Below, piece by piece: positions 1,986-61,054 of a DNA stretch of 64,000 bases. The position numbers were made by a program, and so were the translations under genes. The DNA lies in the NCBI RefSeq assembly GCF_030684315.1, contig NC_081363.1, forward strand, positions 83,041,678 through 83,105,677, read 5' to 3'. Under the pieces are notes generated by a model, which saw nothing but the letters and a program-made list of their open reading frames with translations, searched no databases and was not told where the DNA came from. Every line of letters starts with the position of its first letter. Within the stretch, counting starts at the first letter, position 1. The DNA is from Stegostoma tigrinum (lineage: Eukaryota).

Positions 1986-2137
1986 TATTTGGAAGGTAGC
2001 ATTGCATCTGATCTACATTTGAACTTTTAATTTCTGTTGACGTCTCCAAATCACAGTATCTTCAAATCTTACAGTATAGAAGAGGTCCATTAGCCCATCG
2101 AGCGTACGCCAAAAAAAACTACAGTAAATCTATACTA

Positions 2138-2304
2138 GATAACAAGGTGTAGCGCTGGATGAACAGGCCAAGCAGCATCAGAGGAGCAGGAAAGCTGACG
2201 CTTCGGGTATTCTGAAGAATGGTCAAGACCTGAAACTTCAGCTTCCCTGCTCCTCTGATGCTGCTTGGCCTACTGTTTTCATCCAGCTCTACACCTTGTT
2301 ATCT
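2138..2304. mobile_element. Inverted (palindromic) PLE terminal-repeat insertion
   Basis: AGATAACAAGGTGTAG... is mirrored by ...CTACACCTTGTTATCT; degenerate hammerhead core near the centre. Confidence 0.8.
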
Positions 2305-2817
2305 ATAGTTGATCTTTTTTTCTCCTGTCTGATGTATTCATTACGTCATTCATATTGCGTTTCTCTCTGATTTGCAAACTCTGCCTTAAACAATTACACT
2401 ACAGGTAATAAAACTATCATCTTGTCTTCAATAAGAAAATTCTGAACTAAGTACAAAATATTGGAAATTTGAAACAAAAAAACAGAAAAAGTGGACAGAA
2501 GAGTCTGACAGCGTCTGTGGAGAGGAACAGAGTTAATGTTTCAAGTCCAATATGACGTTTCCTCAGAACACTGAATTCTAAACTTTTCCTTTTTTTATCT
2601 GCTCTAATGGCATTGTTTATTTAGCTCTTTAAAAATGGTTTTTAATCAAGTTACATGCTTTAGTTAGTTTTTCTCTGCAACTTGAAGCTTAGCCTAGAAA
2701 TGAAGTCTCTGACTTCATTTCAAAAGGAATGAATTACACATGCTCCTTTGGAACATTTCTAATGGCAAACAGCATCAGAGAAATTCCTTTATCCCAATCA
2801 TTGGTGCCATCTCCCCA

Positions 2818-2938
2818 AGGGTTTTGACCCGAAACGTCAGCTTTCCTGCTCCTCTGATGTTGCTTGGCCTGCTGTGTTCAACCAGCTCTACATCTTGTTA
2901 TTTGAGACTTTCCAGCATCAACAGTTCCTACTATCTCT
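2818..2938 (+). mobile_element. PLE terminal-repeat fragment
   Basis: GACCCGAAACGTCAGCTTTCCTGCTCCTCTGATG..CAGTTCCTACTATCTC, the same family as 59709-60621. Confidence 0.75.
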
Positions 2939-3419
2939 GTGACAAAATTTGCATATGGCCTTACTTGAGGAACCTTCCAGAATGTCATCTTTCCTTATTA
3001 GCAATTGACACTTTGATCAAAATTGCAACACCACCTCCTAATTTACTCACCTTGCTGTCTCACCTGAAGATTGTATTCGCTGCAATGCAGATCTTCCCTC
3101 AGCCATGTCTTATTGATGGCAATGATATATCTACATGTGCTAACTTTCAAGATCATTTACATTACTCGTATGGTTCCTTGCGTTAAAATAAATGCCATCC
3201 AATATGCTGACCTTTTACGTATCCCAAATTGGTTGAATACACTTTGTTTGACAGACCAACTTGGCTCTTCTTGTCCATTTGTCTGCGCTTCACAGTTAAG
3301 CGACCTCTGTTCCACATCCCATTCCCTTGCCAAAATTAGTTTAAAGACACGTCAACAGCACCAACTCTCCCCACTACCCATGGCCACCACACACCACAAG
3401 TCCTGCTTGCGGTTCAGGT

Positions 3420-10545: not shown

Positions 10546-12416
10546 ATTTTGCATTTCTACATTGTTCCATTTGCGGCACCACCATCGAGCTTCGTGAGAT
10601 GAATGGAATCCTGAACACGGTCCGTCCATAATTGTCATTGATAATGTTGTGGTGAAACAATGCAGCTCCTGCTGACATATCTCCCAACATGCCGAAGGCC
10701 GTGAGTTCCAGGGTTGATGGCACTATGACAGTGAAGCAATCCTAGTCTATTAATAAGTCAGGAAGTCTTACTGAATAGTTATTTTGCCTCAATATTTACC
10801 CCATAGACTGTGCGATTTTTACGTGGATTTTACTGTGAACCCGTTCACTCCTCCTGAACTGGGGGAAATTGGTGGTGGTTCTTTCCATCTATTGCTATCC
10901 TGGCTCTCACAGCGGACGTGCACAGCTCAGGGTATTCTTCTCCCGCTAATATTGTCATGAGAGAGATGCAGTTGTGACAGGTCTATCTGTCGACCGATAA
11001 GGGCGAGAGAAAATCGCTTTGTTTTTGGTCTTGTTGGCCCTGTTGGCACTTAATCCAAATAGACAAATAAACAGTCAGTGGACCAGTTGAATATTTATGA
11101 CAATCCAGAAGTTCAGTGGTCCAAAGTTACTGAGACTGGATTTACAATTCAAATATATTAACTAAATTTACACAAGAACATAAGAAATAGAAGCAGAAAA
11201 TCGTCTACTGCTCCTTAGGAACTTCTCTACAATTCACAAATAATGTGATTGATTTGATTGCAGCTTCTATTGTGTGAGTATGGGGAACTGGAACTTTAAG
11301 CGGCCGATTACGAGGCGTCAGTTTGACGTCACCAATCATTTTTAGGTCGGGAAATTACTTCGTCTAACTTTGCTACCTGTGTAATAAACATCTCCTTAAT
11401 AAAGCACTTGCTATGTAACATTTCGGCCGATGTTCTTCTTACAAATTGGCTTCGATATCCCTTTCCTGTGTGCCCTCCCTGCAACCAATCCCATCCTTCG
11501 TATAACCTAAGATCTCTTGACTAACTTAGACTCTAAAATATAAAATGACCCGACTTTCCATTGTTTGTGAGCAGGAGAAGAATTCCAAACATTAATGACC
11601 GTCTGAGAAAGGAAATTACTTCTCAGCAAGGAGTAGCTGTATGCCATCTGCGTGTAAACGTTGTAAAGTAGCAATTCTAAATTTCGATTTGTACTCTAAT
11701 ATCTGTAGAGTAACATCAGCATTCTCTAAATCCATATTACTACCAACAAATGTTTTGTTTTGGTGAATTGAACATTGTTTCCCCGTTCCAATGCAAAGGT
11801 ACAAGCGTGCTATTATCCAACGGTGACCCCATAATAAGAATCATCATACTCGCATAATGCATATTTTGTAAATAGGGTCACACTTTAACGAAATTGCACC
11901 CTGTTTCAGCTCAGTATTAGGTAAATGCAAGAAATGATCCACATATTGCAACATCAAGTTTTAATTTGCAATTTTTTGTCATCATTCATGCTTCTTTTTA
12001 GTTATTTGGTTTGAAATTGCATTCTTTTGTTGCAAAAACGTAAAGCTGTGATAGTTTAATCTGCACACCCTGTTCTATTTAAGCTCTAAAACACTATCAA
12101 AGATTATCATCTTTGCTGATGACAATCTGTACAATTAACACTCGTCGATGAGTTAAATATGCACAAGACCAGAATATGTCACTATTTCCAAAATCTAAAA
12201 TACAATGAGATCATAGTCTAAACATTTTCACTGCTTACGAAAGGTGTCTACTTGTCTTGTAATTTATTTCAATCAATGAAAAATAAGTTCCAGTAGTTTT
12301 AAATCGCTTGCACGTCAGTTAATGGCAATTGTTTAATGCAGCAAAAATGAGTACCGCCACAGCATAAAGCCTGAATAAAGGTGATTTCAGTTAAAAAAAA
12401 TGCCTTTGTAAAATTT

Positions 12417-12640
12417 GAGATAACAAGATGTAGAGCTGGATGAACACAGCAGGCCAAGCAGCAACAGAGGAGCAGGAATGCTGACGTTTTGGGCCTGGAC
12501 GCTTCTTCAGAAATTTCTAAAGAAGGGTCCAGGCCCGAAACGTCAACCTTCCAGCTCCGCAGATGCTGCTTGGCCTGTTGTGTTCACTCAGCTCTACACC
12601 TTGTTATCTCAGATTGTCCAGCATCTGCAGTTCCTACTAT
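12417..12640. mobile_element. Palindromic PLE terminal-repeat insertion with 13 bp TSD
   Basis: CTTTGTAAAATTT at 12404-12416 and 12641-12653; arms centred on CAGAAATTTCT. Confidence 0.9.
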
Positions 12641-12771
12641 CTTTGTAAAATTTCTCAGGTTAAACTATGCAAAGAGAAGAAACGACAGCAAGGTACATGT
12701 TTATTGAAAAACATATTTTTCAAGACAGAATGCGGATTCCAATGCATCCTTAGGAGATTAATTTGAGAAGC

Positions 12772-21070: not shown

Positions 21071-21547
21071 CCTCATTGATCAATGCTGCTTTCAGTCAGC
21101 CTATCTGTTACTTGCTGAGAGCTTTGATCTCTTATTTATTGGTAATAGTGTTTTAACCACATTTGATCACTTTTATGCATGGTAAACGCTATTTAAATAT
21201 AACTTGCTTTGTTCTTTAGAAAGGGCGAAGGCTATTCGTTAAGGAATCAAACACAAAAAAATGCGTTCGATCTGAATAGATTGCATCTTCACATCTCAAA
21301 GATAAATTTGAAAGACAGGACAAAGCATAATTACAAACAGAATATTTAATCAGAAGGTGACTAGTGTCAACTGATTAACAAATTGACATTCGGTTAATAT
21401 TAGTAATTTTCCAAAGACGGAACGGGAACAAATCCAGAAGTTTTCACTTAACATCAGATAGATGGTTAGAAAAATAATCTGACACTTGCCAATCAGTTAT
21501 AATATGAAAACAGCTTTTAAAAAAAAATCAAAACATTGCAAAGTATT

Positions 21548-21710
21548 CTCCCTCTCTCCCTATTTATTTTAGAATCCCCTTCCCCTCCCCCATTTCTGAA
21601 GATGGGTCTCGACCCGAAACGTCAGCTTTCCTGCTCGACCTGCTGTGTTCATCTAGCTCTACACCTTGCTATCTCAGATCCTTCAGCATCGGCAGATCCT
21701 ACTATCTCTA
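21548..21710 (+). mobile_element. PLE terminal repeat
   Basis: CTCTCCCTATTTATT..CTGAAGATGGGTCTCGACCCGAAACGTCAG..CTACTATCTCT. Confidence 0.85.
21596..21625 (+). ncRNA. Minimal hammerhead ribozyme motif (PLE-associated)
   Basis: CUGAAGA-U-GGGUC-UC-GACCC-GAAA-C-GUC. Confidence 0.6.
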
Positions 21711-28535: not shown

Positions 28536-28826
28536 CTCTTCTGCTTATGTTTCAATCTGCGTCAACTGTTTCGGACTGAAATGAGGAGGAATTTCTTCTC
28601 TTCACTCAAAAGGCAATTCTCTACCCCATAGAGCTGTGTAAACTCACTCATTCGGCATAGTCAACATGAATATCGATACATTTCCAGTTACTAATGCCAT
28701 CAAAGGACATGGGCATAGTGGGGAATACGATGTTGAGGTCGGTGATCGGTCATCTAGGATGACAGAACAGTCTCCATAGGCTGAATAAGGCAATGAGATG
28801 TAGAAAGAGAAGTGGTCTATTTGACA

Positions 28827-28959
28827 GGAGATAATGGGAACTGCAGATGCTGGAGAATCTGAGATAACAAAGTGTGGAGCTGGATGAACACAGCAGGCCA
28901 AGCAGCATCTGTGCTCCTAAGATGCTGCTTGGCCTGCTGTGTTCATATAGCTCCACGCT
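28827..28959. mobile_element. Palindromic PLE terminal-repeat insertion with 14 bp TSD
   Basis: TGGTCTATTTGACA at 28813-28826 and 28960-28973. Confidence 0.9.
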
Positions 28960-29039
28960 TGGTCTATTTGACAAAACTGCCATGTTCTTCCTTGCTCATA
29001 TAACCAGTCTATATCCCCCTGTACTCTTTCTGTGTCATC

Positions 29040-29760: not shown

Positions 29761-30151
29761 TTCTTTCCTTTTATTCCTGCGAGGGCAAGAATGTTGTACC
29801 CATATTTCTATGTTCCTAAACTGGGAGTTGATTGTATCCAAAATATCAGTTTTCATTCTGCATTAGTGTACAAATTACATTTACAATTTGATAAGGAGAG
29901 GAATGGGATGAACTCAAAAAATTGTAAAAGAGGCAATACCTTAGGGCGAGTAGGTGAGTAAGAATAATTTCATTACGTTCCACATTACATGGGACAGCTG
30001 ATATTGTTCGACCGCCCGACTGGCCCCCTTTTGTGCCGTGACCATGTTGCGTGAGAAGTATGTGCGTTGCACAACCTCAGGACAAGGCTCTCATTCATTT
30101 AGGACTGAAATTAGGGAAAATTCCTTCACTCAGAGTTGTGAATTTTTGTAG

Positions 30152-30381
30152 AAATCGTAAGAACTGACGATGCTGGAGTCAGAGATAACACAGTGTGGAG
30201 CTGGAGGAGCACAGCGGGCCAGGTAACATCAGAGGGGCCGGAAAATTGACGTTTCGGGTCAGGATCCTTCCTGAAAATCAGACCTTTTTGAAGAACGGTC
30301 CTGACGCGAAAAGCCAATTTTCCTACTCCTCTGATGCTGCCTAGCCCGCTGTGCTGCTCCAGCTCCACACTGCATTATCTA
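30152..30381. mobile_element. Older palindromic PLE insertion within a CR1 3' fragment, 13 bp TSD
   Basis: TGAATTTTTG(T/C)AG at 30139-30151 and 30382-30394; mirrored arms. Confidence 0.8.
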
Positions 30382-33300
30382 TGAATTTTTGCAGTTGTTC
30401 ACCTCAGAAGATAGTGGATGCTCCATTATTGAATATTTCACAGCTGTGGTTTTTAAATAGATTTTTAATCTCTTGGGGAGTAGAGAGGTGCAAAGAGTGG
30501 GCAAGCAAGTGGAATTGAGATAAAAGATCAGTCACCGTCCAGTTGTATTGAGGAGGTTCCAGGCATAGAAGAGCTGTTATTTCATATTTCTACTGTCAGG
30601 GCGGGGAGGGGCTATAAAATAGGAGTTTGAGGGAATTGTTTTTGTCCTGTGGTTCACCAGTCACGGTATTTTAGGAAGCGACTATGGACGTCACCACGGA
30701 CATGACCTAAAATATTTTTTCAATTATGTTTGTTATCTTAACCTATTCTGAGCACTGAAAAGTTTTGTTATTCTACAGTGGATGCGGCTAGCGGCAAATA
30801 TGGACTTTAAGGATTATAGCTTTCATTTGTGATACAGACTTGGCTACAGATCTGATGCCAACAAGTAGATTTCCATAAACTAGTATTTTGAACTGGATAA
30901 TGATCCAGAGAATGAAATAACCAACTTCTTGTTAACAACGCGAGGTTTCAAGGTGATCCTAAGTAAACCATCTGAGCTATGCAGCTTCCGTTTTTTTTAT
31001 TTTATCAAATGATGTGGCTTATCTGAAAAACTGAATGAAACGGGTGTGTTTTTTGTGCATGTTGATAGCATAGTTGTTTCTTTGAATGGCTGTCGTTTTG
31101 TGAATGACGCACAACCAATGAACTTTTTTTTCATTTCGAGGTCACTGCACACTTCTTATCGGAAAATGTTCTGTGCACTCAGCACTAGTTCACGAGGTTC
31201 TAACGTTTTCAAAGTAAGTGCGTTCAACTTGTTCCGGGTCGGTGGAGTTTTCTTTTCTCATTTACCACAGTGTCTCCTGTAATATAAGCAACATCTGCGA
31301 TCATTTTGTCTTGTTCCACTACACATCTCAGCTGTTAACAGTGTTTGTGAAATTTGCTGTAATATGCAGAAATGTTTTTAAATGACTAAAGTTTCTTCCG
31401 GACCAAGTAACGATGGCAATGAAGTTCAGCAGCTTCACAGGAGAATTGGTTCCGAGAGATGACTCGACCAGGGGCTTTAAGAATGTTGGTGTGATTTTCT
31501 GCAAGGATTTACTCTGTAATTGAGTTGGAAATTCACCTCGTAATGTCTCAGCAAATTGGTCACTATCTGTCGCTAGGTCGGCTGTTCCAGATGAATAAAT
31601 CTGAGATGTAATGGTCCTCGCAGATTGGAATGAGGTGGGGTGAGGGGAGGGATTACTTGGTGTTTGTAATCAGAATGAAGAGCCAGTGGCACTATTTTCC
31701 AATTTCATAAAGAGGAAATGAACTAATGCAAAATTAATGTGAGTTTTATACCTGCTGTTGGCCTCAGCTTGGGCAGTAAGACTGACATTGAAATACACAC
31801 GAGCACGCAAGTGTTGTCAGAACTCCACAATCAAAACTGAGGTGAATTTTATTTCTCCAAATAAACGCATTTAAGATACCGTCCTCAAGTCTCCAAAGTA
31901 GTTATATCAGTTTTTAAGACATTCAGTACATGTCCTAACAGTCTACACATTATTTCAAGCTAAGTGAAATCATCCAGACATAGTGAAAATACAACTTATT
32001 TCTGGTAATGTCTCGAGGACTCTGGGTAGTGATGATGTCGCTGGACTGGTAATTCAGAGTCCCAAACTAATTCATTGTGGACATGAGTTTATATCTGCCT
32101 GCTGTAGGTGGTGAAATTTGAATTCAATAAAATACAAAATACATTAATGGCAAGTCTAACGCCAACACTGTTTTGAAGTGAATAGATGGGACTTGGTGCA
32201 ATCTCAGGCCTTGACAGAAAAGCTGTGGATCTAACATCTACGTAAGGTGGGAAACCTACTAGAAAAGCATTGCAATAGTCTTGTTCCAAAAAAAATGCAA
32301 CAGTCAGGCGAAGACAAGGGTAGATAAAAGTTTGCAAAGTTGGAAGAAAACAGTATTATTGATGAAGCCAATAGATCACCACAGTGTTAAACAGAGACCC
32401 ATGTGAGCAAGTTGTATGTTTCATCCTCAGACTTCCTGGCAAGGATAGGAATGGAGTTCGTGACTAGAATAGATATTTAGAAAAACAGAAGGCCCAAAAT
32501 TCTTGATAGTTTGTTTGATAAAGTTTATTTTCATCCAGCGGTAGTTGTCGAAGAAGCAGCGTGACAGCTCGAAGACGTGATATAAAGAGCTGGTGATAAG
32601 GTAGATCTGTTTTCCAGCATTGTTCAGGTAAAATACCCGTAATTTTTGCAAAAGTCATACAATAGCAGTAGGTTGGGAGGGACGATAGATTGGTTCTTGG
32701 AATACTCGAGCAGTATTGATACAGAATAAGGAGGAGAAGCAGTGCAGGATATCCCCCGACTGTCGCTGGATGTGTTGGGATGAAACATGATGCAGGCTGT
32801 CTCTGCTAGCTGGAAAACAGAGAAGGCATTGAAAGAAGATTGTGTGATTAACCATCTGAATCTGCAGTTTCTTCATTCTTTAAACAGGATTGTGTATTGA
32901 AAGTGAATAAAAGGTTGTCAGGGTTAGGCAAGAATTTCGAATTCAAAACACAGGCAGATCAGTCATTATCTTATGGAATGATGCAGCTGGGCCTCGGAGG
33001 CCAGATAGCCCATTTCTTCTGACTTGTGTTCAGTTAATTCATTTGTTAGTTAGATGTAACTCAACGTCATCAATTTTGAGAAGAATTGCATCCAGACCCA
33101 GAGAACCACAATTAGAAATGTGCAACCATTGCTCAAGGTAAACACAATTCTTTAAAGATGCTCGCACAGCATAAATTACACGGTTGCACGATGGTGTACA
33201 ATATTAATTTGAAGGTACCTGTGCTGAACAACATATTTAATTCCAAGCCATTTCTTCCAGCAAGGTATTCCTTGCTCAGATTTGACAGTTGTGAAACTTT

Positions 33301-33870: not shown

Positions 33871-35658
33871 GAATGTGCCGCCTTAAACAATAAAAGATTT
33901 GGTGTCCTTACAGCATGTTATAAACTTCAGTTCAATCGCTTTATCCCAGTTCCTTATGGATCTCATGATGAGCTGCAATCTGCCCGATCCTTTACAATCT
34001 CATTAGTATCGCTGTGTATGGCCTGAGATATCACTACGACTGAAGGAGAGTCTGGGAGACGTTACTTTCTTACAGCCATTGGTAACTGCTATTGTCATCA
34101 ACACAATAATTAAATGGAGTCTCTAATTCAGGACTTCTTTTAGCGACAGGATTGCATCCACTACGTCAGCTCACTGTCAGCTTTTGCAGAAAAGACGTGC
34201 AAAATTAAAGATATCTTCTTTCAATTGTATAGACTTTTTGTGAGACGTGCCTGGAGTATTGCGTTGAGTTTTAGTCTCTTCATCTAAGGAAGTTTATATT
34301 TGTGTTACCATTAGGGTAGCACGCCTTAAATCGAGTTCCTCTCTTCCTAGAATCATATCAAATGTTAAAGTTTCTTTCTTGTGAAATGTGCACAGTACCC
34401 CAATTTTCCTGGCTTTCAGATAAAGGTTGATAGAATGCACGGGCAGGTTTCTATACTAAGCAAGAATTATCACCTATTATAAGTAATTTGTGACAACAGG
34501 TAAACAGATATAAACCATTGACATCTAACGCTACTAACTGAAACTCTATTCCACTTATAAAGTCACCCTACACACAGAGGTAAACAAATAAGGAAAATAG
34601 ATCATTGGTGGAGGTAGAAATACTGGAAGATTAGTTCAGTGGCCTTTACTTCCTGTTTCCAATGTAGGAATAATTCTTCTTCAGTTGGTCAGGTGTAATT
34701 CTCTGGATGTTCCACTGGTCTGTAAGAACCACAAACCAATTCATTCACGTGAAAATGTCTCCGGTTGCTTACAATTAAAAAGCTGCAGCTTACTGCCAGT
34801 GCCGCAAGAAAGGCAATTGGTTTTCTTCAGGTTTAAACCAACCTTTTGACTTCATAGAACAAGTGGCCTCTGGTCAGGGAGAAGATCAGTATTTTTTTCT
34901 CTTTCTGTCTCAGGAATTTGCATCGAGCTCCAAGCTTCTCAGCCCGCGAGAACTAATCACACAGTTATTGGTAAGCAAAAGGTTACTGTTATTAATAACT
35001 AGTCACCAGTCCATAGACGAATCAACTGCATCTAAATACAAAACCCTCTGCTCGTCTTCATCTGCAAGTCAAACTTTAAATACTGCTGATCATTAAAAAT
35101 GGTGTTTAACAATGCTTGCCATGGGTACTTGATTGCTACCTTTTCAAAACATGTAGCACCCTAAAAATATCTTTCTGTTTTCAGTGCACAGTTTTATAAA
35201 GAAAACACAAAGATAACTAGATATGGTCCTTACCCTTGCCATGGAAAAAGTGCAATTGAGGATCAGCAGACTAATTCCCGTGGCAGTAAGATTGTTCTAC
35301 ATTGAGGAGATTGGACTTTTATTCTCTGGAATTTAAAAAAAATGAAAGGTTGAAACAGATAGTCTTTGAAATTCTGAAACCTGAAGTGGTGTAATAGCTC
35401 AACCATTCTCCGAGTTCAATGCAAAGATTGACAAATTTCTAATGCTTAATGGCATCAAGGGGAATGCAAGAAAATTGTAAAGAGATGATCGATCGGGCAT
35501 AATCTAGAATGATGGAACTGGTTTGAATGGTCCACTTGGACTACAAATACATTCGTGCCTCTTTCTTAGTCAATGGGATTCATCTGCTTTCAGTTGGAAT
35601 CTTCTTCTGGGAATCCAAGTCAATCAGAGTCTTAAAACTGCCGAACTCAGTTGGTGGA

Positions 35659-35778
35659 TGTAGGGTCTAGGCCCGAAACGCCAGCTTTTATGCTCCTAAG
35701 ATGCTGCTTGGCCTGCTGTGTTCATCCAGTTCCACACTTTGTTATCTCGGATTCTCCAGCATCTGCAGTTCACATTAT
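35659..35778 (+). mobile_element. PLE terminal repeat with 13 bp TSD
   Basis: CTCAGTTGGT(G/A)GA at 35646-35658 and 35779-35791. Confidence 0.85.
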
Positions 35779-37955
35779 CTCAGTTGGTAGAAAGAACACT
35801 TTTCTATATACAGTCTTTGAAGACACAAATAATGCAGTCAAACGTAACTATTTTATTGAAGAGCACACTAACACTTTTCTGAGCATTTAATTCAAAGTAA
35901 GGAATATATATAGGAATAGACAAAACTTCATAGCAGAGAAGGCAGCCTTTCTTAATGCTATTCATATTCCTTAAGCCCATACTGACTTCTATCTCATTTA
36001 CTGTACTACTTTCACCTGATATCTCTGACATTTTACCAAATATCATTGTTTAGCCAAAGACGTGAAATTATGCAGTTTGGTTTGGCATGCAGAATGGACT
36101 CAGATCACAGCATTACCTTTACTTCTTCGGGGAAAGAAAAGCTTTGTTCTGGTACATAGAACGATTCAATGCATCGATATCCTGTGATTTACATGTGCAG
36201 TGTATTGTCCCAACAGGAAAGTAAAGTGGCTCCCAGCAGTTTACTAGTACTCTCTTCCTCCCTAAGCCTCATTTCAGTTTCTGAATTCTGGATTACATGT
36301 ACCTACGGACTCCACTGATTCTGCGTTGTTTGCCATTGGCCTCTCGGAATGCTAATGTTACATAACATAGACATTACTCCATAATATCTCGTCTGAAACC
36401 TAACTTGTTCCAGAGCTGTGCAGGCATCTAAACCTGTTTCATCACTTTCAATAATCTACTCGCTTAACGTTCCCAAATGCATCAGGTGTGATTTGCAGAA
36501 TTATTTTTATCGCCAATCGTTAACAACGTGGTTTCAATACGTTCACTGAACAAACTGCAAACTATAGGTCAGACTCATTATGCACCTTCTCTTTCTGGGG
36601 CGCCTCATTTTTACTGCATCCGTTATTGTATATTCAACTGACGAATTCTTCGTGCGTGGCATTTGCTTTGCCAATGCGACCTCGCAGCGTCTAAAGTGCG
36701 TCATTAAAATTAATTGCACTTTCGACCCTTGCTGTATGCTAAAATACGTGTAAAGTGCCAGAAAGCACGCGCCACTTCCGTCGCGTGTATGTGATTCTGT
36801 GCCATACTGACTGAATGCGACGTAATGTTTGAGTTAAGCATACGCTTAGCCCTGTCATTCTCCTGTGAACAAGAGCACAAGCGTTTTGTGTGCGCACGGC
36901 GGCTACCTATGATGTTAACTAAATAACTAGGAAGATGAAGAGTGGTGCTGGGGAACGCAAATGGGATGGTGACAGATGAGTGCTGGTAGGCAGTGGTGGG
37001 GATTGGTCAGTGAAGTGGGAGGAGCGGATAGGTGGGAGATGAGATGGACAGGTTGTGTCAGGTCAAGGAAGCGGGGATGAGGGGGATTGGTCATGCGATG
37101 AGGCCGGGGGGTGATGGTGAGGAGATTCTGAAACTGGTAAAGTCCACATTTAGACCATTGGGCTGTAGGATCCCGAGGCAGAACATGAAGTGCTGCTCCT
37201 CCAGTTTCCGGGTGGCGCCATTGTGACACAGAAAGAGGCTCAGAATGGACACGTCATCCAGGGAGTGAGAGAAGGAGTTGAAGCGATTCGCGACCGGAAG
37301 GTGTTGACGAACCTCTGTCTGATGTGAATGGTTTGTTTGGTGCCATGTATGGAGGTGAGGGTGGAGAAGTAGGGGCAGGTGTAGCACTTCCTGTGGTTGC
37401 AGGTAAAGGTGCCTGGGGTGGCAGGGCTAGTGGGAGTGTGTGGAGCGGCCGAGGAAGTCACTGGGGGAGCGGATCTTACGAATGGCAGATTGGGGTGGGG
37501 AGGGAACTATATCTTTGGCAGTGAATTCAAATTGCAGGAGACGAAAATGGCGGAGATTGATAAATTGGGTACGGAGGTTAGTGGGCATATCACCCAAGTA
37601 AACTCCGTATCCAACATATCATTCTCTGCCACTTCCGCCACTTGCACTCTGCCCCGCAACCAAAGATATGTGTCCCTCCTAACCCCTTCCATAGGGACCA
37701 CTGTCTCCGTGACTCCCTGGTCCGCTCCAGACTCCCCATTAGCCCCACCACCTCCCTCCCCTCGAACCTTTCCCTGCAACTACAGGAAGTGCTACCTCTG
37801 CCCCTAACCTTCCCCCTGCCTCCATCCAAGGTACCAAACAAACCTTTCACATCAGACAGAGATAATGGGAACTGCAGATGCTGGAGAATCCAAGATAATA
37901 AAATGTGAGGCTGGATGAACACAGCAGGCCAAGCAGCATCTCAGGAGCACAAAAG

Positions 37956-37985
37956 CTGACGTTTCGGGCCTAGACCCTTCATCAG
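37956..37985 (-). ncRNA. Minimal hammerhead ribozyme motif
   Basis: Reverse complement reads CUGAUGA-A-GGGUCUAGGCCC-GAAA-C-GUC-AG. Confidence 0.65.
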
Positions 37986-38100
37986 AGAGGGGGATGGGGT
38001 GAGGGTTCTGGAATAAATAGGGAGAGAGGGGGAGGCGGATCTTCAGTCCGCCTCCCCCTCGCTCCCTATTTATTCCAGAACCCTCACCCCATCCCCCTCT

Positions 38101-38130
38101 CTGATGAAGGGTCTAGGCCCGAAACGTCAG
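38101..38130 (+). ncRNA. Minimal hammerhead ribozyme motif
   Basis: CTGATGA-A-GGGTCTAGGCCC-GAAA-C-GTC-AG. Confidence 0.65.
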
Positions 38131-40192
38131 CTTTTGTGCTCCTGAAATGCTGCTTGGCCTGCTGTGTTCATCCAGCCTCACATTTTATTATCTTTCACAT
38201 CAGACAGATGTTCACCTGCAAATCCGTCAAAGTGGTCAATTGTGGTCTGCATCCGCTGCTCCCGATGTGGCCTCCTCTACATTGATCAGACAAAGTGGAG
38301 GCTCGGCGATCACTTTCCAGAGCACTTGCGCACTGTTCACCACAAACGCCAACACCTTCTGTTCACGAACCACTCCAACTCCCCCTCCTACTCCCTGGGC
38401 GACATGTCCAGCCTGAACCTCCTCCAGTGTCACAATAACGCCACCCATAAACTGGGGGAAACCCACCTCAGATTCTGCCTTGAGAGCCAATGGTCTAAAT
38501 GTGGACTTTACCAGTTTCAGAATGTCCCCACCACCACCCCACCCGCCTCATCTCACGTCCAACCCTGGTTCTCATCACCTCCTCCTCCTTGGCCCGACAC
38601 AACCTGTCCATCTTCTCTCCCACCTATCTGCTCCTCCCACCTCACTGACAAATCCCCACCACAGCCTACCTGCACTCACCTATCACCATCCCACCTACCC
38701 TCCCCTACCCCACCCCTCCTCTCCCTATTTATTTCGGAGCTCCCTTCTCCCACCCCCATTTCTGAAGAATGGTCCTGACTCGAAACGTCAACTTTCCTGC
38801 CCCTCTGACGATGCCTGGCCTGCTGTGTTCATCCAGCTCCACCCTGTTGTCTCTATATTTTGCTCTTTACTTTGTGAAAGGACCGATTCATCTCCGTTGG
38901 GCGGAGATGTGGGGGAAGCTGGAGTAAACGTGAATCGGTTGCAGTAACTGCCCATGATCTTCCTTTCCTGCAAAAGGGGGCTAATAGAATGGTTCCTCTC
39001 AGATAAAGCTAATATGGTGCACTAAATTTCATTCCACTTGAATGACGATGCCTTCTCTGATTGACGGTCGCATCGTTCCAGTACTAACGGTTAGGGATGA
39101 TAGAGGATGGAAGGATCCTGTGGCCTGATTGTATTACTTATAGAACTGTTGAGAAACTGCATCAACGGTATGACACAGATTCCTGCGTTTAGAGATGAGT
39201 TAGCTTTCCAACCGTGACGCCACTGTTTTGTATTTGGTTCAACTGTCGTCCTCAAAGCTGCTTTTACCCATCACTACCAGCCCCCTCCCTCTTCCCAGCG
39301 TGAATGAGGCCAAGGACAGAAAGAGAAATTCACTTCATTCTCTCTCCACCACCTTATTTGGAAAATAGTGACGAACATTTGGCTCCTAGGGTCACTGGAG
39401 GTGAACATGACTTCAGTAAGCTGTTGTATAAAGATTTGTGGTTTAGCGTTGGCAAGCATTTTGACCAAGATAAGCGAGAAGACTCAGGCGGATGATTATT
39501 GCTGCAGTCGCGATATTTAAAATCACAATGAACACTAGCATTTCACAGACCATGTCAAAGCTCTTATGAGACGTGAACAGAATGTTGTAAGAGGGTGACA
39601 GAAGGCTGTTTGGATGATGTCACTTAGGGCAGAGGGTAATGAATAAATTGAATGATCTACTAAGGTAACTGAGATTGAATGGCTCACAAAATGTAATAGA
39701 TAAATACAAGAACAAAATGTTGAAACTTTATCTAGGAAACATTGTGGGATATAATAGTGTACAGAGGCACTGGTCAAAATAATTGTTATTGTTATTTCAT
39801 ACTACATTCCCATAGCAAATGATTTCGTCCAATGAATGGGGGACTGACTCCGAGTCTTTAGAATCAGATCTGAAACGCATCATTTTATGAGCATCGTTAG
39901 CGTGAGCCGATTATGTTGAATTCTGCGCAGTTTCCACAGAGTAGTGAACACCTCGGTTCAGAGACTGCGCTCTAGCCTCTGAGAGGGAGACGGAATCCGA
40001 GCACACAATCTGTGAGATTATAGAGGGCCTGCTTTGCAGCAGGCGGAGAATCTACCCCGAAGGGTGCTCCGTAGCAATCATAAAGAAGCTGCTAGAGGTT
40101 GAACAGAAGCTTGGCGAGCTGACACGAGGGATCCTCCCTCTCATCACTGTTGCTACTACCTGGCGCGCGGCAGCAATGACGGTCATGCTTTA

Positions 40193-40759: not shown

Positions 40760-41510
40760 CCTTTCTCCATGGGTGGTGTCAAAGCGCGTTAGATCAGCGG
40801 TGAAGCTAACGAAGCCATTTGACCTCTTGCCTGTGGAGGCTCGATATGTCATTCTTGCAGCAAAACCTCTCCTCCTATCCATGCCCCTCATGATTTTAAA
40901 AAAATCTCTATAAGGCCACCCCTCAGTCTCAGATGCTCCAGGGGAAATTGCACTAGCCTTTCATATAACCTATCCAGATGCCTTATTAAATGTTAGAATT
41001 TTACGCGGCTCCACCACTTCCTCTGGCAGTTCGTTCCATACACGCACCACCCTGTGCTTGAAAAAAAGGTTATCCTTCAGAGATAGTAGGAACTGCCGAT
41101 GCTGGAGAATCTGAGATAATAAGGTATAGAGCGGGATGAACACAGCAGGCCAAGCATCATCAGAAGAGCAGGAAAGCTGACGTTTCGGGCCTCCTCCAGG
41201 TGCTTTTTTAAGTCTTTCCCCTCTCACCTTAAACTTATGCCCTCTAGTTTTGGACTCCTCCAACCTCAGAAGAAGGATTTGGCTATTCACCCTATCCATG
41301 CCCCTTATGATTTTAAAAAAAACCTCTATAAGACCATTCCTCAGCCTCAGATGATCCAGGGGAAAATGCACTAGCCTATTCAGCCTCTCCCGATAACTGA
41401 AACCTCCAGTTCTGACGATGTCCTCCTATTTTGTTTTCTGCACCCTCTCAAGTTTAACAACATCCTTCCAATACAAGGGCGACCAGGTGTACGCAGTAAT
41501 CGCCAGGTTA
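40760..41510 (-). mobile_element. CR1 fragments with a nested PLE terminal repeat (41079-41190)
   Basis: RNGLIEVFFKIIRGMDRV..TRGHKFKVRGER..RVVRVWNELP. Confidence 0.8.
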
Positions 41511-48850: not shown

Positions 48851-51510
48851 ATTAAAAAGGGTGAAGAAATGTATTTTAGAAAGTAGAATGTGGGAATTTG
48901 GTATAAACAACTAGTAGGGGTTAATGCGGTGCAGTAGCAGGCAAATCCGTGATATATATAAATCTTTGTGGTATGCAAGACACATTAAGAAGACCATTCA
49001 TAGAAAACATATACGCACATCACTGGTTTTATAGCCTAATGCTGAACAAGGGAAAATATGCTTTAAAAATGTTAAAATCGCTGATTGGACGTAACAGGGT
49101 TGTGAAGCCCAATTCCCCCGTGCATGAACAGAATGTCAGAAATTGGGAACACTTCAAAACTGGATTGTTCTAATATTTTTCTGCGTATCATGAGATCTCG
49201 TTTGACTGGTGTTGTTAAACTAGCAGTTTTCCAGGTTCCTCGTAAATATTGACAAATCGGAGGAACAAGAAAGGCCATAAGAATCACCGAGGTCACAATC
49301 TTCCATTGAACTGACGTCATTCCTGGCGCAATACGTAGTCTATTATCAGGTTGCGCTTGGGGAAGGTGAGATGTTTTGGTCTTAGACAGAATGACAACTT
49401 AACCTTCAGATGAAGGTGGGCAAGGAGGCACCCTGTCCCATGGTCATCAGTTGAAAAAAAAAACTGGATAATTGACACAGCTTAAATCACCAGTCCTTAG
49501 AAATATGATATATCAACACGTAATCAAAATCAGGAAGCAGCCCACATCAAGGAGCCGTCTTCTTCATACGGAAGGTCCACCGGAAAGGGGGCGAAAGACT
49601 TAAGATCAGCTCCCTAACACTTCGATTGGAGAGCAAGAGGCTGTCTTGACATGTGTAATGAGATCAACATATTCCAGCAACAGTTCATATCAGTGAACTA
49701 CCTACAGTTGTGATTTTTTTTCTCTAACACCTACACTACTGCTTAACAAATTTATCAACTATCTGAAAATTCGATTCCAATAGTCCACTGCCTATATTGA
49801 AGTTTTATCGACCCAAATCTCCAAACATTAACGAGAATAAATTCCAATCATGGAGCAGTTCCACTGAATAAAGGATTGCCATCCATCCCTAGGTCCACAT
49901 ACCGATTCCCCTCAAAAGCAACTCAGCTACTCACATCCCAGACTTCTTTTTTTATCCTGTATTGCTCCACATTAACTAATTTCAGAGAGTTATCCAAATA
50001 TCTTTTGGATTGAATCTGGCTCAATCGAACTCACATGCAACGTATTTCAGGCATTGCTGATCTGAAAGGTCTCTTGGCCTCCTCTTGGCTCTGCTTGTTG
50101 TTTGATGCTCATTAGTTGGAGTCTCTATGATACCCAGTTCTTGTCATATTTAGGCACAGACTGCTGCATATCTGTAGACAATCAGATGTGACTGAACATT
50201 ATGCAATGACCGGTGACACCCCCCATCTTTGACCGTCCATGGTCATTGATGAAGCAGGTGAAGGTGAGTTGGACTTGTACACAACCTTGAAGATCTCCTT
50301 CTGCCACGTCGTGAGCTGAGAATATTGGTCTCCAGAAGCCTCAGCCACGCTCTTCCCCAAGTTGTGCAGAGCCAGTGGAAGCTCTTCCCCTGTTCCAATG
50401 TGATTTCAGTTTTTTTGAATATTAGCGCTTGGCGTTCCCTTTTATTAAATATTTTCGCATTAGTTTATTTATCCAACATTGCAGGATTTCTTTGTTTCTG
50501 GGAGATTGGCAACAGAGTGAGTGACTAAGAGGGGAGGGATATAAGGTTGGAAATATCATCTGTTGTAGAATGAAAATAGGCCCAAATTGAACTAAAGAAA
50601 TCCCCATCTGGTCAATGTCATCCCAAGAAACCGTCCTTTTTTGCTGCAGTTATCAAAGACGTTATTCTATCCCAGTAACCACTCACCATTGTCCGACGCA
50701 CCGCTGTCCAAAGCCAATGACCATATTTCCTTGACCATACACGAGGTTCACATTCCTTTGACCACCTAGAGTGCACTGACAACTTCTTTTCGCAGTTAAC
50801 CATCCTTAAATCTAAGTGAACAAAACACCACACTGTTCGCATGCACTGTCTGTTCCTACTGTTCAAACACTTTCACCATCCGACACTCCACAACCAACTA
50901 CACTAACAAAATGGACAACAATAAATGTCAGCGATCGCTCCCCAAGCCGTATTATATACACACAATTGTCTGCGCTCATTTTCAATGCTCTATTGCCAAC
51001 AAACTACGGTCGGCGGCGAATAGTACATACACGATAATCCACAACAATCAATCCCTCTCTTAGAACACGAACTATTCACACATCACTTTCCACACTCTAC
51101 ACTCCAATGCTCATGTCCCGTCGATGTCTCGCTGCCCAGAACCTGAGTTTCATTTCTCACAATCCGCACTTCAATACCAAGATCTTGCAATCTCGAACCC
51201 ACTGTGTGCACCTTACGGTTAGTACCTTTCTGTTCAGAATGCATTGCCTTCCCATTTTTATACCCGCCATACACTTCAGCCCATTTTTCTACAGTGCACC
51301 GTCCGCAATCGAGCACCTGCACCCTCCCAGCGCAACCCACTGACTGCACCCCCTTGTCAACACTCTTTTGTCCGAGGTAACTGTGGTTCCTACCACGAAC
51401 CCCTCCACCGCAACCCCCAACACAGAACCTCCACAGAGGTGATCACCAGCAGCCATTGATCTACTAATTATCTATCAATAGGCTGAAACCGGGATTACTG
51501 ATCTGTGGGA

Positions 51511-51659
51511 GAGAGATAATGGGAACTGCAGATGCTGGAGATTCCAAGATAATAAAATGTGAGGCTGGATGAACACAGCAGGCCAAGCAGCATCTCAGGA
51601 GTGCTCCTGAGATGCTGCTTGGCCTGCTGTGTTCATCCAGCCTCACATTTTATTATCTT
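51511..51659. mobile_element. Palindromic PLE insertion with perfect 55 bp arms and 15-16 bp TSD
   Basis: Arms 51546-51600 and 51605-51659; TTACTGATCTGTGGGA at 51495-51510 and 51659-51674. Confidence 0.95.
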
Positions 51660-52094
51660 TACTGATCTGTGGGAACAGGAAACTTTGCTTCCAACAGCAG
51701 CTGGTTGACCAGAGATCAACAATTCTCTCTCTCTCTAACCACAGCGCCAACCACATCAGTGGCCTCAAGCTGGTACTGCACCCTGCCATACTGGAGGTCA
51801 TAAGTGCTTGTGGTCGGTCTGCGTAGTTAGAAGAAGGGCCTGAGAAGCCAAGGAAGGAGGGAAGCATTCGCGGACACTCTGAAGGGCCAGGGAAGCCAGT
51901 TAAGGCAGAATCTTCTTCCATCGCCAGGCCGGGGGCACAAGTGGCGGCTTAGCTTTCGACATTCATGTCATTGGTTTAATCTGAGCCATGAGATTAGGCC
52001 ATTTCTTAGGCTTTTATTGACATCTTAGGGCCTGCTTTGGAACATCGGCTGGCGGCCCACTGGATGCATCTCCAAATTATATCTGCATGAACAC

Positions 52095-52265
52095 TGAGGG
52101 GCAATTTAGCATGGCCAAGCCACCATCAACTTAACGTCTTTGGACTGTGGGAGGAAACCGGGGCACCCGGCAGGAACCCACGCAGACACCCGGAGAACAT
52201 ACAAACTCCACACAGATAGTCACCCGGGTCTGAAATAGATGCTGTGATGCAGTGCCTCCACTGTG
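52095..52265 (-). mobile_element. HE1-like V-SINE fragment
   Basis: TTTGGACTGTGGGAGGAAACCGG..ACCCACGCAGACAC..AAACTCCACACAGA. Confidence 0.8.
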
Positions 52266-52407
52266 CGTCCGTGCTGCCCCGTGCTCCTCTGCACCTGGAT
52301 CAAAGCAAGTCTCGGTTTCGTTGCAGAGCAGTCTGTTCTCACGCCAATGCAACCTTCTTGCTAGGCAATCTGTTTTCACTTAACTTTCCAAAATTCAGCA
52401 ATTACAG

Positions 52408-52735: not shown

Positions 52736-52847
52736 ATGATATGGCTTAGAGGTGTCTTTGTTTTTGATAATACACACCGCATCCATTCACATTCGGAATC
52801 ATCTTAAATAATTCACCGACTCCAAGACAACAGCATAACATCCACCT

Positions 52848-53073
52848 AAGATAACAAGGTGTAGAGCTGGATGAACACAGCAGGCCAAGCAGCATCAGAG
52901 GAACATGAAGACCGACGTTTCGGGCCTAGACCTTCTTCAGAAATTTCTGAAGAAGGGTCTAGGCCCAAAACGTCGGCCTTCCTGCTCCTCTGATGCTGCT
53001 TGGCCTGCTGTTCATCCAGCTCTACACCTTGTCATCTCAGATTCTCCACCATCTGCAGTTCCTACTATCTCTG
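52848..53073. mobile_element. Palindromic PLE insertion with 13 bp TSD
   Basis: ATAACATCCACCT at 52835-52847 and 53074-53086; centre CTTCAGAAATTTCTGAAG. Confidence 0.92.
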
Positions 53074-53131
53074 ATAACATCCACCTCTTTGGTTTGCCGA
53101 TGCATTAACATGCAAAGTAGTATTTTATCGA

Positions 53132-53262
53132 TGAATGAAGGGTCTAGGCCCGAAACGTCAGCTTTTGTGCTCCTGAGATGCTGCTTGGCCTGCTGTGTTC
53201 ATCCAGCCTCACATTTTATTATCTTGGAATTCTCCAGCATCTGCAGTTCCCATTATCTCTGA
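53132..53262 (+). mobile_element. PLE terminal repeat with 14 bp TSD
   Basis: TAGTATTT(T/C)ATCGA at 53118-53131 and 53263-53276. Confidence 0.88.
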
Positions 53263-54558
53263 TAGTATTTCATCGAGTTGCGTGAGCAGTTCATCATTTC
53301 CCCATTAAGTGATTTCTGCATTTGAAGACGGTAAATATTTCTGCGTCACCATTGTTGCTCATTTCTAGGTTCAAAGTGGTTGAACTCACATTGCTCGCCG
53401 TTGAACTCCGTTTGTCATCAGCTTGCTCGCTGATTGTGCGTGCATTGTGGCGTATATCTGAAGTAGGAATATACAGGACATCATATGATTTGCTTTTGCA
53501 TTTTTGAAGCCAATCAATACAAAGGACAAGTTCAAATAATCCACAATATGCGAAACCATTCTGTAAACTGATACATATCATTCTTATTGTGATTTTTATT
53601 CATTTTTATTTTTGCATATTGGTGTGATTTTAAACCACAGATTTTGGGAAAAGTGGAGCAAATAAATCACTATTCATTCAATTCCTTCAGTGGCGGGAAC
53701 GATTTTAAGCTGTATCACAGTTCTATTGCTTGCAATAAAATGAAACTAACAATTACAGATGACATGCACATTTTCGGAAATGCAAGCAATATAACTTTTG
53801 GCTTTTCATTCAGAGAGTTCAATGGTATTCTACACTTTAGCCCAGAAGAATGAATTCCAGCTTTAAGGGTTGCTGCGGGTACCAGAGATATACCAGCATC
53901 CCATAGCTCCAAATGAAAAAAATGAGAAGGTCGCATTTAAAATAAAAACCAAGAGTAGGCATAGAGTTGGGGTAGAGTTATTATTAGTGTTATGTTGGAG
54001 AGGTTAGTGAAGATTAAGGATACCTTCATCACATTCCAGAACTGGAACGAAATTGAAATCCCGTTCATTTCGAACAGTGGAAGAAACCTGTTCTGTGAAT
54101 GGCCAGGAACTGAATCAATGCAAAGAGCGATTAATTCTGTTTTCTAATAACATGCTACCAATTAAATTGCGCCCCCTGTGATTTAGCCAGTTTACTTTAA
54201 ATATTTTTTTAATTGTAAGAGACGGACTGATCGTCATAGCAGTGCAATTGTGGGTTCATCACGGATACCAAACTGAATCATTTCTATCCTGGAACCTTAT
54301 TTTGCTCCTGGAACTACCTTTAAATTATGTGCCTGTCCGGGGTGGTCTACGCGACGTTAGCAACATAAATGTCTCCTATTCAGTCCCTTTATGAGCTGTT
54401 CTTATATATGACCCTCGAGACAAATCTTCGGCTCGCAATTTCCAGTAAGGGATACGTACGTTTAGTGTTTTAACGGGTCGTGCCAATGTGTACCACCAAT
54501 ATTTTTGACGATCCAGGAAAGTGAAAAGGACAGAAAATGGAAGGTAAAGCACGTGATA

Positions 54559-58853: not shown

Positions 58854-59708
58854 CCTCCGTGCTGTCAAAGGGCTTCTCGCCAATTTCCAAACAGACGTCT
58901 CCCAATCCAAGACAGAGCCCTGTCAGTTTCGCCTCCGCGGATCCACTCCAAGTTGTTGCTGTTTACTTTACCTAGAAGTAATAAAAGAACTTACGGAAAA
59001 CTCTGGTGTAGACAAGAAAAGGAGTACACCACTGTAGCTGAGCTTTAAATCTCTGAATATAACGGGAAGCCCCGCATGTGAACGCACGACTATCTTCTGT
59101 TTAAAATGGATGTAACAGGCGAAATTCACCAAATGGGAAAATTGGGTTAGAATAGTCATGTGTTTGCTTTTGACAGGCAGAGACTCGGTGAGCCAAAGGG
59201 ATTTTTTTTCCTGTGCTGTGCATTTCTTTGACTGTATGGACATGAACGGAGGTTGCCCTATGAATAGCTTAAGCGGACGATGCCATTTTGCTGCTAATCA
59301 GCTTCACAAGGCTGATAGAGGTGTTATCACAAGCTAAAATCATTCGCAAGTCGAGGAACTGGGAGCATACCGCTTCCTGGGTCCAGTGGGCGAGAAAGAA
59401 ATACCCCTGTTCTGCTTGGCCCACAAGAGGTGCGGTGTGCAGATGCTTACTCTATGGATCTGGCCCTCTTCTGGTCAGGAGCGGGAATCCACTGTTTAGC
59501 GTGGAATGGCAGGTTTGATCCCTGCATCCAAAAGACAATGGTTCTGCATCAGAAAAAAAACATTGCGGCGCTCAGAGTGAATTGTTTTTGCAGAGGGCTG
59601 GCACAGACAGGGCAGATACAATGGCATCCACTTGTGATACTCGTCTCCTCTTAGCTCCTAGCTTTCCAGGGCGTCCGGAAATCCAATAAGAATTGCTTAA
59701 ATATCAAT

Positions 59709-60621
59709 GATAATGAAATGTGAGGCCGGATGAACACAGCAGGCCCAGCAGCATCTCAGGAGCACAAAAGCTGAGGTTTCGGGCCTAGACCCTTCATCAG
59801 AGAGGGGGATGGGCTGGGGGTTCTGGAATAAATAGGGAGAGAAGGGGAGGCGGACCGAAGATGGAGAGAAAAGAAGATAGGTGGAGTGGAGAGTATAGGT
59901 CGGGAGGTAGGGAGGGGATAGGTCAGTCCAGGGAAGACGGACGGGTCAAGGAGGTGGGATGAGGTTAGTAGGTAGGAGATGGAGGTGCGGCTTGGGGTGG
60001 GAGGAAGAACAGGTTAGGGAGGCAGAGACAGGTTGGACTGGTTTTGGGATTCAGTGGGTGGAGAGGAAGAGCTGGGCTGGTTGTGTGGTGCAGTGGGGGG
60101 AGGGGACGAACTGGGCTGGTTTTGGTATGCGGTGGGGGAAGGGGAGATTTTGAAGCTGGTGAAGTCCACATTGATACCATTGGGCTGCAGGGTTCCCAAG
60201 CGGAATATGAGTTGCTGTTCCTGCAACCTTCGGGTGGCATCATTGTGGCACTGCAGGAGGCCCATGATGGACATGTCATCTAAAGAATGGGAGGGGGAGT
60301 TGAAATGGTTTGCGACTGGGAGGTGCAGTTGTCTATTGCGAACCGAGCGGAGGTGTTCTGCAAAGCGGTCCCCAAGCGTCCGCTTGGTTTCCCCAATGTA
60401 GAGGAAGCCACACCGGGTACAGTGGATGCAGTATACCACATTGGCAGATGTGCAGGTGAACCTCTGCTTAATGTGGAAAGTCATCTTGGGGCCTGGGATA
60501 GGGGTGAGGGAGGAGGTGTGGGGGCAAGTGTAGCATTTCCTGCGGTTGCAGGGGAAGGTGTCGGGTGTGTTGGGGTTGGACGGCAGTTTGGAGCGAACAA
60601 GGGAGTCACGGAGAGAGTAGT
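59709..60621 (-). mobile_element. Young 5'-truncated PLE with an open GIY-YIG endonuclease frame and 13 bp TSD
   Basis: VVYCIHCTRCGFLYIGETKRTLGDRFAEH..HF..LGTLQPNGIN (60014-60484); TSD CTTAAATATCAAT at 59696-59708 and 60622-60634; hammerhead-like motif 59771-59800. Confidence 0.93.
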
Positions 60622-61054
60622 CTTAAATATCAATATTGTGTTTTTCTGAAAAGATGAGCCATCAGTCTCCGACATAACTTACTTTTATGGTCTCGGCCGC
60701 CTGTGGCCGTCAAAGTGGACGCGGACGGCTCTCAGTTTTCGTCTGAGGAAGGATCACTGGGTTTGCACTGTAAACTGATTTTTTTTTCTTCACAGATGCT
60801 GTCAGACTAGCTGGACTTTTCTAGCAACTTCTGTTTTTGGTCCTGATTTACAGCATCCGCAGTTCTTTCGGGTTTTTCTCTAGTTCTCTTCCTTAAGTAT
60901 TAACTTCTTATCTGACTCAGATCCAGCATTTAGAGGTGGATTGGGGAACTTAAGACTCCTGTTAGTTTCGTCAGGGATTTTATTAGTTGCTGTCACTGTT
61001 CGTCGTTTTGTCGTGAACTCAGATGTTCTTAAAAGAGATTGGTGATATCTTGCT

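What the first reader, a model, noticed from the sequence alone, without database searches (positions are those of the whole stretch)
37845..38208. Recurrent head-to-head PLE hairpin insertions with 13-16 bp TSDs and a ~30 nt end asymmetry
Seen: seven palindromic insertions of the same terminal repeat (2138, 12417, 28827, 30152, 37861, 51511, 52848). Six have clear 13-16 bp TSDs, so each palindrome is one integration event. In those six, one arm runs to the long end (..CAGTTCC(C/T)A(T/C)TATCTC) and the other stops ~30-40 nt earlier, usually at an internal TTATCT. Two independent copies (12417, 52848) share the centre CAGAAATTTCT. Known: PLEs form inverted partial duplications and have an optional short 3' tail. 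Inference: integration is stereotyped and two-ended (each nicked strand primed at a different TATCT site) and mass-produces hairpins, some with mirror-image ribozyme motifs. These could be a non-autonomous unit and a source of dsRNA or cruciforms.
Basis: partly seen in the sequence, partly recalled or inferred. Interest (0 to 1): 0.7.

Follow-up and report, generated by a model that had tools for sequence, protein, structure and literature searches.

The report
Penelope-element head-to-head insertion scars in shark
The hairpin-shaped repeats are real but are the already described head-to-head insertion scars of a Penelope-like jumping gene in shark-type DNA, each made afresh at its own site, likely by copying one RNA from both cut DNA strands at once.

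Summary
Confirmed: 7 of 7 palindromes exist; 6 of 7 carry 13-17 bp target duplications, and in those six one arm is 32-42 nt longer at its outer end. They are 3' ends of a Neptune/Nematis-type Penelope-like element (GIY-YIG with CX4CxxC linker; 90-91% to whale and zebra shark proteins). An inverted 5'-truncated copy, a TSD and a 30-40 nt tail on one end only is the published PLE insertion form, and two RT start sites flanking the tail were shown in vitro. A master hairpin element is not supported: centres differ, hairpins arose in about four subfamilies, single-arm copies share the same ends and TSDs, and contigs from public runs show many different head-to-head joints. The shared centre is a stop hotspot at the ribozyme's 5' edge, possibly the RNA start. 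The useful extra: in 3 of 3 informative hairpins the short arm reaches further 5' while the long arm holds the tail, which excludes simple cDNA fold-back and fits twin priming on one RNA (inferred, small n). Ordinary structure, modest mechanistic lead.

The parts
37844..37860 (+). left target-site duplication copy (17 bp maximal; last 4 letters also fit the element's long end)
37857..38039 (-). long arm: element 3' end including the ~34 nt tail (about 37857-37891), young subfamily
37958..37985 (-). minimal hammerhead core in the long arm (motif match only)
   Evidence: motif class from PMC4209133 passages
38039..38046 (+). centre: sense-strand element letters belonging to the short arm, 1 nt shared with the long arm
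38047..38194 (+). short arm: element 3' region ending at the internal TTATCT site
38101..38128 (+). minimal hammerhead core in the short arm (motif match only)
38192..38208 (+). right target-site duplication copy (first 3 letters also fit the element's short end)
36921..38856 (.). older, ~71-78% identical ~1.9 kb head-to-head copy of the element's endonuclease/3' region, into whose right arm the 37861 hairpin inserted
2137..2305 (.). hairpin, old subfamily, short+short, no convincing TSD
12404..12653 (.). hairpin with 13 bp TSD, short left / long right, both arms stop at the hotspot
28813..28973 (.). hairpin with 14 bp TSD, long left / short right, imperfect 8 nt homology at centre
30139..30394 (.). 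hairpin with 13 bp TSD (1 mismatch), divergent subfamily, long left / short right
51495..51674 (.). hairpin with 16 bp TSD, young subfamily, arms 56/56 identical, long left / short right
52835..53086 (.). hairpin with 13 bp TSD, short left / long right, both arms stop at the hotspot
53118..53276 (+). single-arm copy, long end, 14 bp TSD (1 mismatch); absent from a contig of organism D
35646..35791 (+). single-arm copy, long end, 13 bp TSD (1 mismatch)
59696..60634 (-). single-arm ~910 nt copy, short end, 13 bp TSD, carrying the GIY-YIG endonuclease coding end (60014-60622)
2817..2939 (+). single-arm copy, long end, no TSD found
21547..21709 (+). single-arm copy, long end, no TSD found
41077..41192 (-). 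single-arm copy, long end, no TSD found

Best explanation
These are dead-on-arrival head-to-head insertions of a Neptune/Nematis-type Penelope-like retroelement, each flanked by one target-site duplication and likely made by twin priming: the element's endonuclease would cut both strands about 13-16 bp apart and each free 3' end would prime reverse transcription on the element RNA. Shown: structure, TSDs, two fixed outer ends 33 nt apart, element class, and that each arm can hold element letters the other lacks. Inferred: one cut strand primes at the inner (short) start site and leads, the other primes at the outer (long) site 33 nt behind on the same RNA and trails, displacing the leader's cDNA; the two cDNA 3' ends are then joined through 0-2 nt (once ~8 nt imperfect) of homology and filled in. 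Inferred: the recurrent centre is where cDNAs run off the RNA 5' end just upstream of the hammerhead. The hairpins are by-products, not a separate mobile unit.
For: [quoted passage not shown] One event per hairpin: removing insert plus one TSD at 37861 restores a colinear coding sequence against two paralogues; a contig of organism D skips exactly insert+one TSD (145 nt) at the single copy 53135 (read from tables 3 and 8). Both ends are start sites: single copies end at either the long (5 of 6) or short (1 of 6, with TSD) site; 1490 and 1078 contigs have loose ends at the short site in two organisms; Frangieh 2024 shows two RT starts flanking the tail and cutting plus extension of both strands. 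Two separate cDNAs: short arm reaches 8, 9-17 and 3 nt further 5' in 37861, 28827, 51511 while only the long arm has the tail; 12417 and 52848 are zero-loop palindromes sharing AT. One RNA: 6 of 6 TSD-bearing hairpins are long+short; the long arm is the lesser-reaching arm in 3 of 3 informative hairpins and in 2 of 2 determinable contig joints, one of which stops just before the short site; joint P about 0.008 (window) to 0.002 under independent choice, post hoc. Hotspot: 7 of 14 hairpin arms start 2-5 nt upstream of the hammerhead core, in the old subfamily at the A of a YYANWYY match 31-32 nt below TATTTAT.
Against: Small numbers, chosen after seeing the data; long+short pairing alone P=0.06. 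2138 is short+short without TSD; the old 1.9 kb hairpin's left end lies ~115 nt inside the short site and has no TSD; 3 of 6 single copies have no TSD. The in vitro data are for a Poseidon element, this one is Neptune/Nematis-type. Only 15 of 945 joints were shown and the reference edges bias which are listed. YYANWYY occurs 11 times per kb and is absent at that place in the young subfamily; no RNA data map the start. No whole genome was held, so pairing of ends could not be counted genome-wide.
Confidence: 0.62

Rival explanations
1. Two-ended priming, but on two separate RNA molecules or two pLTR copies of one tandem transcript, each choosing a start site independently.
For: Gives the same anatomy; PLE transcripts are partial tandems with two pLTR copies; explains 2138 (short+short) and arms that both stop at the hotspot.
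Against: Predicts at most half long+short pairs and no bias in 5' reach; seen 6 of 7 and 3 of 3 (joint P ~0.008).
Confidence: 0.2
2. Self-priming / fold-back (Arkhipova 2013): one strand folds back on a palindrome and is copied, and endonuclease resolution leaves the tail on one side.
For: Published reading of head-to-head PLE structures; arms are near-identical in young copies (146/148, 56/56); 28827 has an 8 nt imperfect self-complementary centre that could fold back.
Against: The loop letters read in the short arm's direction in 37861, 28827 and 51511, so the short arm would be the template, yet the other arm has 32-42 more element letters; zero-loop centres cannot be made by intramolecular fold-back without added bases; single short-ended copies with TSD exist.
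Confidence: 0.1
3. A non-autonomous hairpin element that is itself transcribed and retrotransposed as a unit.
For: 12417 and 52848 share the centre and are of the same subfamily; some joint-spanning contigs have depth 150-500 against 2-19 on unique flanks in the same run, so some joints may be multi-copy (contig depth is not copy number).
Against: 5 of 7 centres differ; hairpins occur in about four subfamilies whose single-arm members lie in the same window; the same stop is used by one arm of 2138, by the divergent 30152 and by many different joints; both outer ends are precise, whereas a copied hairpin RNA would have one ragged end; 12417 and 52848 arms share no evident private variants.
Confidence: 0.06
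4. Assembly or library fold-back artefact.
Against: TSDs, asymmetric ends, arm divergence of 1-18% that tracks subfamily age, 79% of sampled words of 37600-38600 held in one public run (possibly the source sample), head-to-head joints in two organisms.
Confidence: 0.02

Closest known systems
Canonical insertion unit of endonuclease-positive Penelope-like elements (Arkhipova 2013 PMC3846280; Craig 2021 PMC8557442 Fig. 2; Schostak 2008 PMC2377424 Fig. 1C)
   Same: Head-to-head inverted 5'-truncated copy, one TSD round the whole unit, 30-40 nt tail on only one end, palindromic junction, hammerhead in the pLTR (passages seen).
   Different: Here both arms are so truncated that only a 130-340 nt hairpin remains; TSDs 13-17 bp against 8-10 bp in the rotifer passages; hairpins are 7 of 13 short insertions in this window.
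Poseidon_Ac in vitro mechanism (Frangieh 2024, PMC11167929)
   Same: Two RT start sites flanking the tail, downstream of a hammerhead; both target strands cut and extended; dimer predicted.
   Different: Poseidon clade, not Neptune/Nematis; the text read does not explain inverted copies or pairing of the two starts; it reports no homology between RNA start and cut DNA, whereas a weak 1-4 nt overlap is hinted here (P 0.01-0.07).
L1 twin priming (Ostertag and Kazazian 2001; recalled, not read)
   Same: Both nicked strands prime on one RNA, cDNAs joined by microhomology, one TSD, 5' inversion.
   Different: In L1 the second primer lands at variable internal sites and arms do not overlap; here the second start is fixed 33 nt from the first and the arms duplicate the same sequence.
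Animal non-LTR retrozymes (bioRxiv 10.64898/2026.07.22.740005)
   Same: Short PLE-derived, hammerhead-bearing sequences, reported in one chondrichthyan genome (passages).
   Different: Retrozymes are head-to-tail tandem units; these are head-to-head and show no constant unit.

Membership tests
EN+ Penelope-like element | C-terminal GIY-YIG endonuclease after an RT domain | tested here: met
   PF01541 E 4e-4 (21 bits, just under the 22.6 cut-off) on 60014-60622; the 91% identical P0001 has RVT_1 then GIY-YIG. No RT is present in the window itself.
EN+ Penelope-like element | two cysteines between GIY and YIG (CCHH motif) | tested here: met
   CxxC inside the core in the window fragment and 6 of 7 homologues; the histidines were seen by eye only
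EN+ Penelope-like element | minimal hammerhead motif in the pLTR | tested here: met
   5 intact core matches by pattern; no Rfam hammerhead hit; cleavage not tested
EN+ Penelope-like element | optional 30-40 nt 3' tail, inverted copy, TSD | tested here: met
EN+ Penelope-like element | partial-tandem pLTR-ORF-pLTR full-length copy | not testable with these tools
   no full-length copy in the window; no genome held
Neptune (or Nematis) clade | CX2-5CxxC linker upstream of GIY-YIG | tested here: met
   CX4CxxC at residue 25 of the window fragment and in 5 of 7 homologues; definition
Neptune (or Nematis) clade | RT phylogeny with reference Neptune elements | not tested
   no labelled reference RTs on hand; Neptune versus Nematis not resolved
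Penelope/Poseidon clade | absence of the CX2-5CxxC linker | tested here: not met
   linker present
Non-autonomous hairpin element / MITE-like unit | copies share one fixed internal structure | tested here: not met
   only 2 of 7 share a centre; arm lengths 50-183 nt; varied joints in contigs
Non-LTR retrozyme | head-to-tail tandem repeats of a hammerhead unit | tested here: not met
   no such array in the window; one head-to-tail joint at the hammerhead cut site among 15 shown

The most novel reading that the evidence does not exclude
PLE inverted ends are made by obligate twin priming on a single RNA: a leading RT starts at the short site, a trailing RT at the long site 33 nt behind and displaces the leader's cDNA, which explains at once why the tail is on only one end, why the tail-less arm reaches as far or further, and why both run off at the RNA 5' end just above the hammerhead. 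Shark genomes would hold thousands of paired-end records to test this, replacing the antisense self-priming model.
Probability: 0.35. Interest if true: 0.55.

Novelty: new member of a known kind. Interest (0 to 1): 0.3.

Why it matters
As a structure it is ordinary for Penelope-like elements. Its value is as a natural data set: how PLEs make tandem and inverted ends is called still undefined in Craig 2021, and these short, abundant, TSD-bounded hairpins record both priming sites and both cDNA stop points of single events. A genome-wide count of end pairing and of which arm owns the centre would discriminate twin priming from self-priming without any bench work. The hairpins also fold into long duplexes if transcribed (310 of 337 nt paired for 37861), but no expression evidence exists.

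Tried and rejected
Whole-genome mining: no genome held. Metagenome scans: 0 hits; 120 loci from a shorter pattern were chance matches of at most 23 nt. Rfam: nothing at gathering threshold; sub-threshold miRNA hits merely reflect the hairpin. Runs X9 and X10 gave no cover on the unique flanks, and X1 covered them patchily, so they say nothing on empty sites. Primer-template microhomology at 3' junctions: first test (P 3e-5 to 5e-4) used a one-sided null and was too generous; the corrected two-sided null gives 20 letters over 15 junctions against 10-13 expected, P 0.01-0.07, so only a hint. My first guess of Poseidon clade was rejected (linker motif). An extra G before the sense arm in two joints as a copied cap was considered and dropped: it can be the last letter of the antisense arm. 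Literature searches listed no paper on shark PLE hairpins or on twin priming in PLEs; the library lacks most subscription papers (Arkhipova 2006, Evgen'ev and Arkhipova 2005, Repbase reports not seen). Supplements of PMC11167929: 3 files, 7,325 characters, no hit for invert/tail/palindrom/duplication; figures there could not be seen and may bear on the mechanism.

Full report
Observation. The palindrome at 37845-38208 is real: arms 37892-38039 and 38047-38194, 148 nt, 99% complementary. A search of the window with that arm finds the other six named palindromes, six single-arm copies and the 3' end of an older copy. In every hairpin the element's 3' ends point outward. Direct repeats of 13-17 bp flank 6 of 7 hairpins and 3 of 6 single copies; such repeats arose in 2 of 3000 random junction pairs. 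In the six, the long arm has 32-42 more 3' letters; the two TTATCT ends are 33 nt apart. 2138 is short on both sides and has no convincing TSD.

What the repeat is. The single copy at 59709-60621 carries a GIY-YIG coding end (PF01541, E 4e-4, just under the curated cut-off) that is 91% and 90% identical to whale shark and zebra shark proteins, the first with RT followed by GIY-YIG. [quoted passage not shown] A minimal hammerhead core lies ~65 nt upstream of the short end, as described for PLE pLTRs (Cervera 2014, passages). No RT tree was built. The family is abundant: 222,367 contigs of run X1 were laid on 51300-53500, with most depth on these arms (depth is not copy number, and other repeats in the stretch contribute).

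One event per hairpin. The 37861 hairpin lies inside an older ~1.9 kb head-to-head copy of the same element. Removing the insert and one TSD copy gives a sequence colinear with the same coding region in the 59703 copy and in the mirror arm, each of which has the target once. For the single copy 53135, a contig of organism D (depth 10.1) runs to 53126 and resumes at 53272, a skip of 145 nt, exactly insert plus one TSD (read from tables 3 and 8; arithmetic). For 51511 the same run is consistent with an empty site but the joint was not shown.

Not a unit. The arms of each hairpin belong to the same subfamily, and about four subfamilies are involved, with single-arm members alongside. Five of 7 centres differ. 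Among the 15 joints shown (of 945), 12 are antisense-to-sense joints from other loci in two organisms, with 11 different antisense end points. Eleven of the 12 have the sense arm starting at the hammerhead's 5' edge, but the reference arms themselves begin there, which biases the list. Inside the window 7 of 14 hairpin arms (4 of 7 hairpins, two subfamilies) start 2-5 nt upstream of the core. So the centre shared by 12417 and 52848 is best read as a stop hotspot. In the old subfamily that base is the A of a YYANWYY match 31-32 nt below TATTTAT (initiator and TATA-like labels are recalled; YYANWYY is common and is not matched there in the young subfamily). PLE promoters lie in the pLTR (Schostak 2008, passages; there TATA-less), so run-off at the RNA 5' end is a plausible, untested cause. 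Against this section: some joint contigs have depth 150-500, so a few centres may be multi-copy.

Mechanism. Frangieh 2024 (parts 1-3 of 4 of the text read) showed for a Poseidon element that RT starts at two internal sites flanking the tail and that both target strands are cut and extended. Here single copies end at either site with TSDs, so both are start sites. Arkhipova 2013 (passages) explained head-to-head structures by self-priming. The centres argue against simple fold-back: in 37861, 28827 and 51511 the loop letters are element sequence read in the short arm's direction (8, 9-17 and 3 nt extra reach), yet only the other arm has the tail, so neither arm can be a copy of the other; 12417 and 52848 are zero-loop palindromes sharing AT; 30152 is ambiguous. 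Two cDNAs joined at their 3' ends fit all of these. Whether both were made on one RNA is less sure: long+short in 6 of 7 (P=0.06), long arm trailing in 3 of 3, and in 2 of 2 contig joints where the tail must be on the antisense side, one ending just before the short site; combined P 0.008-0.002, post hoc. A trailing RT that displaces, but cannot pass, the leader predicts exactly this; it is L1-style twin priming (recalled) with a fixed second start. Overlap between element ends and TSDs is 20 letters over 15 junctions against 10-13 expected (P 0.01-0.07), a hint of short primer pairing only.

Comparison and novelty. Craig 2021 Fig. [quoted passage not shown] The structure is therefore known; this shark family is a new member. 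Eight searches (listings only unless cited above) showed no paper on these shark hairpins or on PLE twin priming, but subscription papers and Repbase were out of reach. An earlier scan note (e1-9899527) reached the same 'ordinary' verdict on another genome; it is a lead, not support. dsRNA, editing or cruciform roles were not testable; in a hairpin transcript the ribozyme motifs would be predicted to be buried in duplex (310 of 337 nt paired). Verdict: real, known kind, with a testable mechanistic refinement; interest 0.3.

Noticed in passing
window 36921-38856: Older ~1.9 kb head-to-head copy of the element's endonuclease and 3' region (arms 71-78% alike, centre near 37587); its left end stops ~115 nt inside the short site and no TSD was found. 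The 37861 hairpin is nested in it.
   Followed up: partly
joint 51654->53160 (run X1): A head-to-tail joint in which the second unit starts exactly at the predicted hammerhead cut site (after GTC), hinting that cleaved RNA is sometimes used as template; one contig, depth 255.
   Followed up: no
window 12896-13405 (-), 45283-45828 (+), 54638-55108 (-): Three related exons of lysine-methyltransferase (PF10294, METTL21-like; one scanned) genes, suggesting a local paralogue cluster in mixed orientation; hairpin 12417 lies ~250 nt from one exon.
   Followed up: no
window 9255-10155: Inverted pair of CR1/L2-like LINE fragments (221 nt arms, 71%), with RT C-terminal coding sequence at 8805-9536 (family label recalled).
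   Followed up: no
window 41077-41192: Single-arm PLE copy inserted into a LINE 3' fragment (40970-41425).
   Followed up: no
window 37696-37985 and other arms: Conserved TATTTAT 34-36 nt upstream of the hammerhead core in 5 of 5 copies that reach it, across subfamilies; possible core promoter of the pLTR.
   Followed up: partly
window 52835-53276: An old hairpin and a young single copy lie 45 nt apart, and another young hairpin 1.2 kb upstream: local clustering of independent insertions; the family covers about 7% of the window.
   Followed up: no
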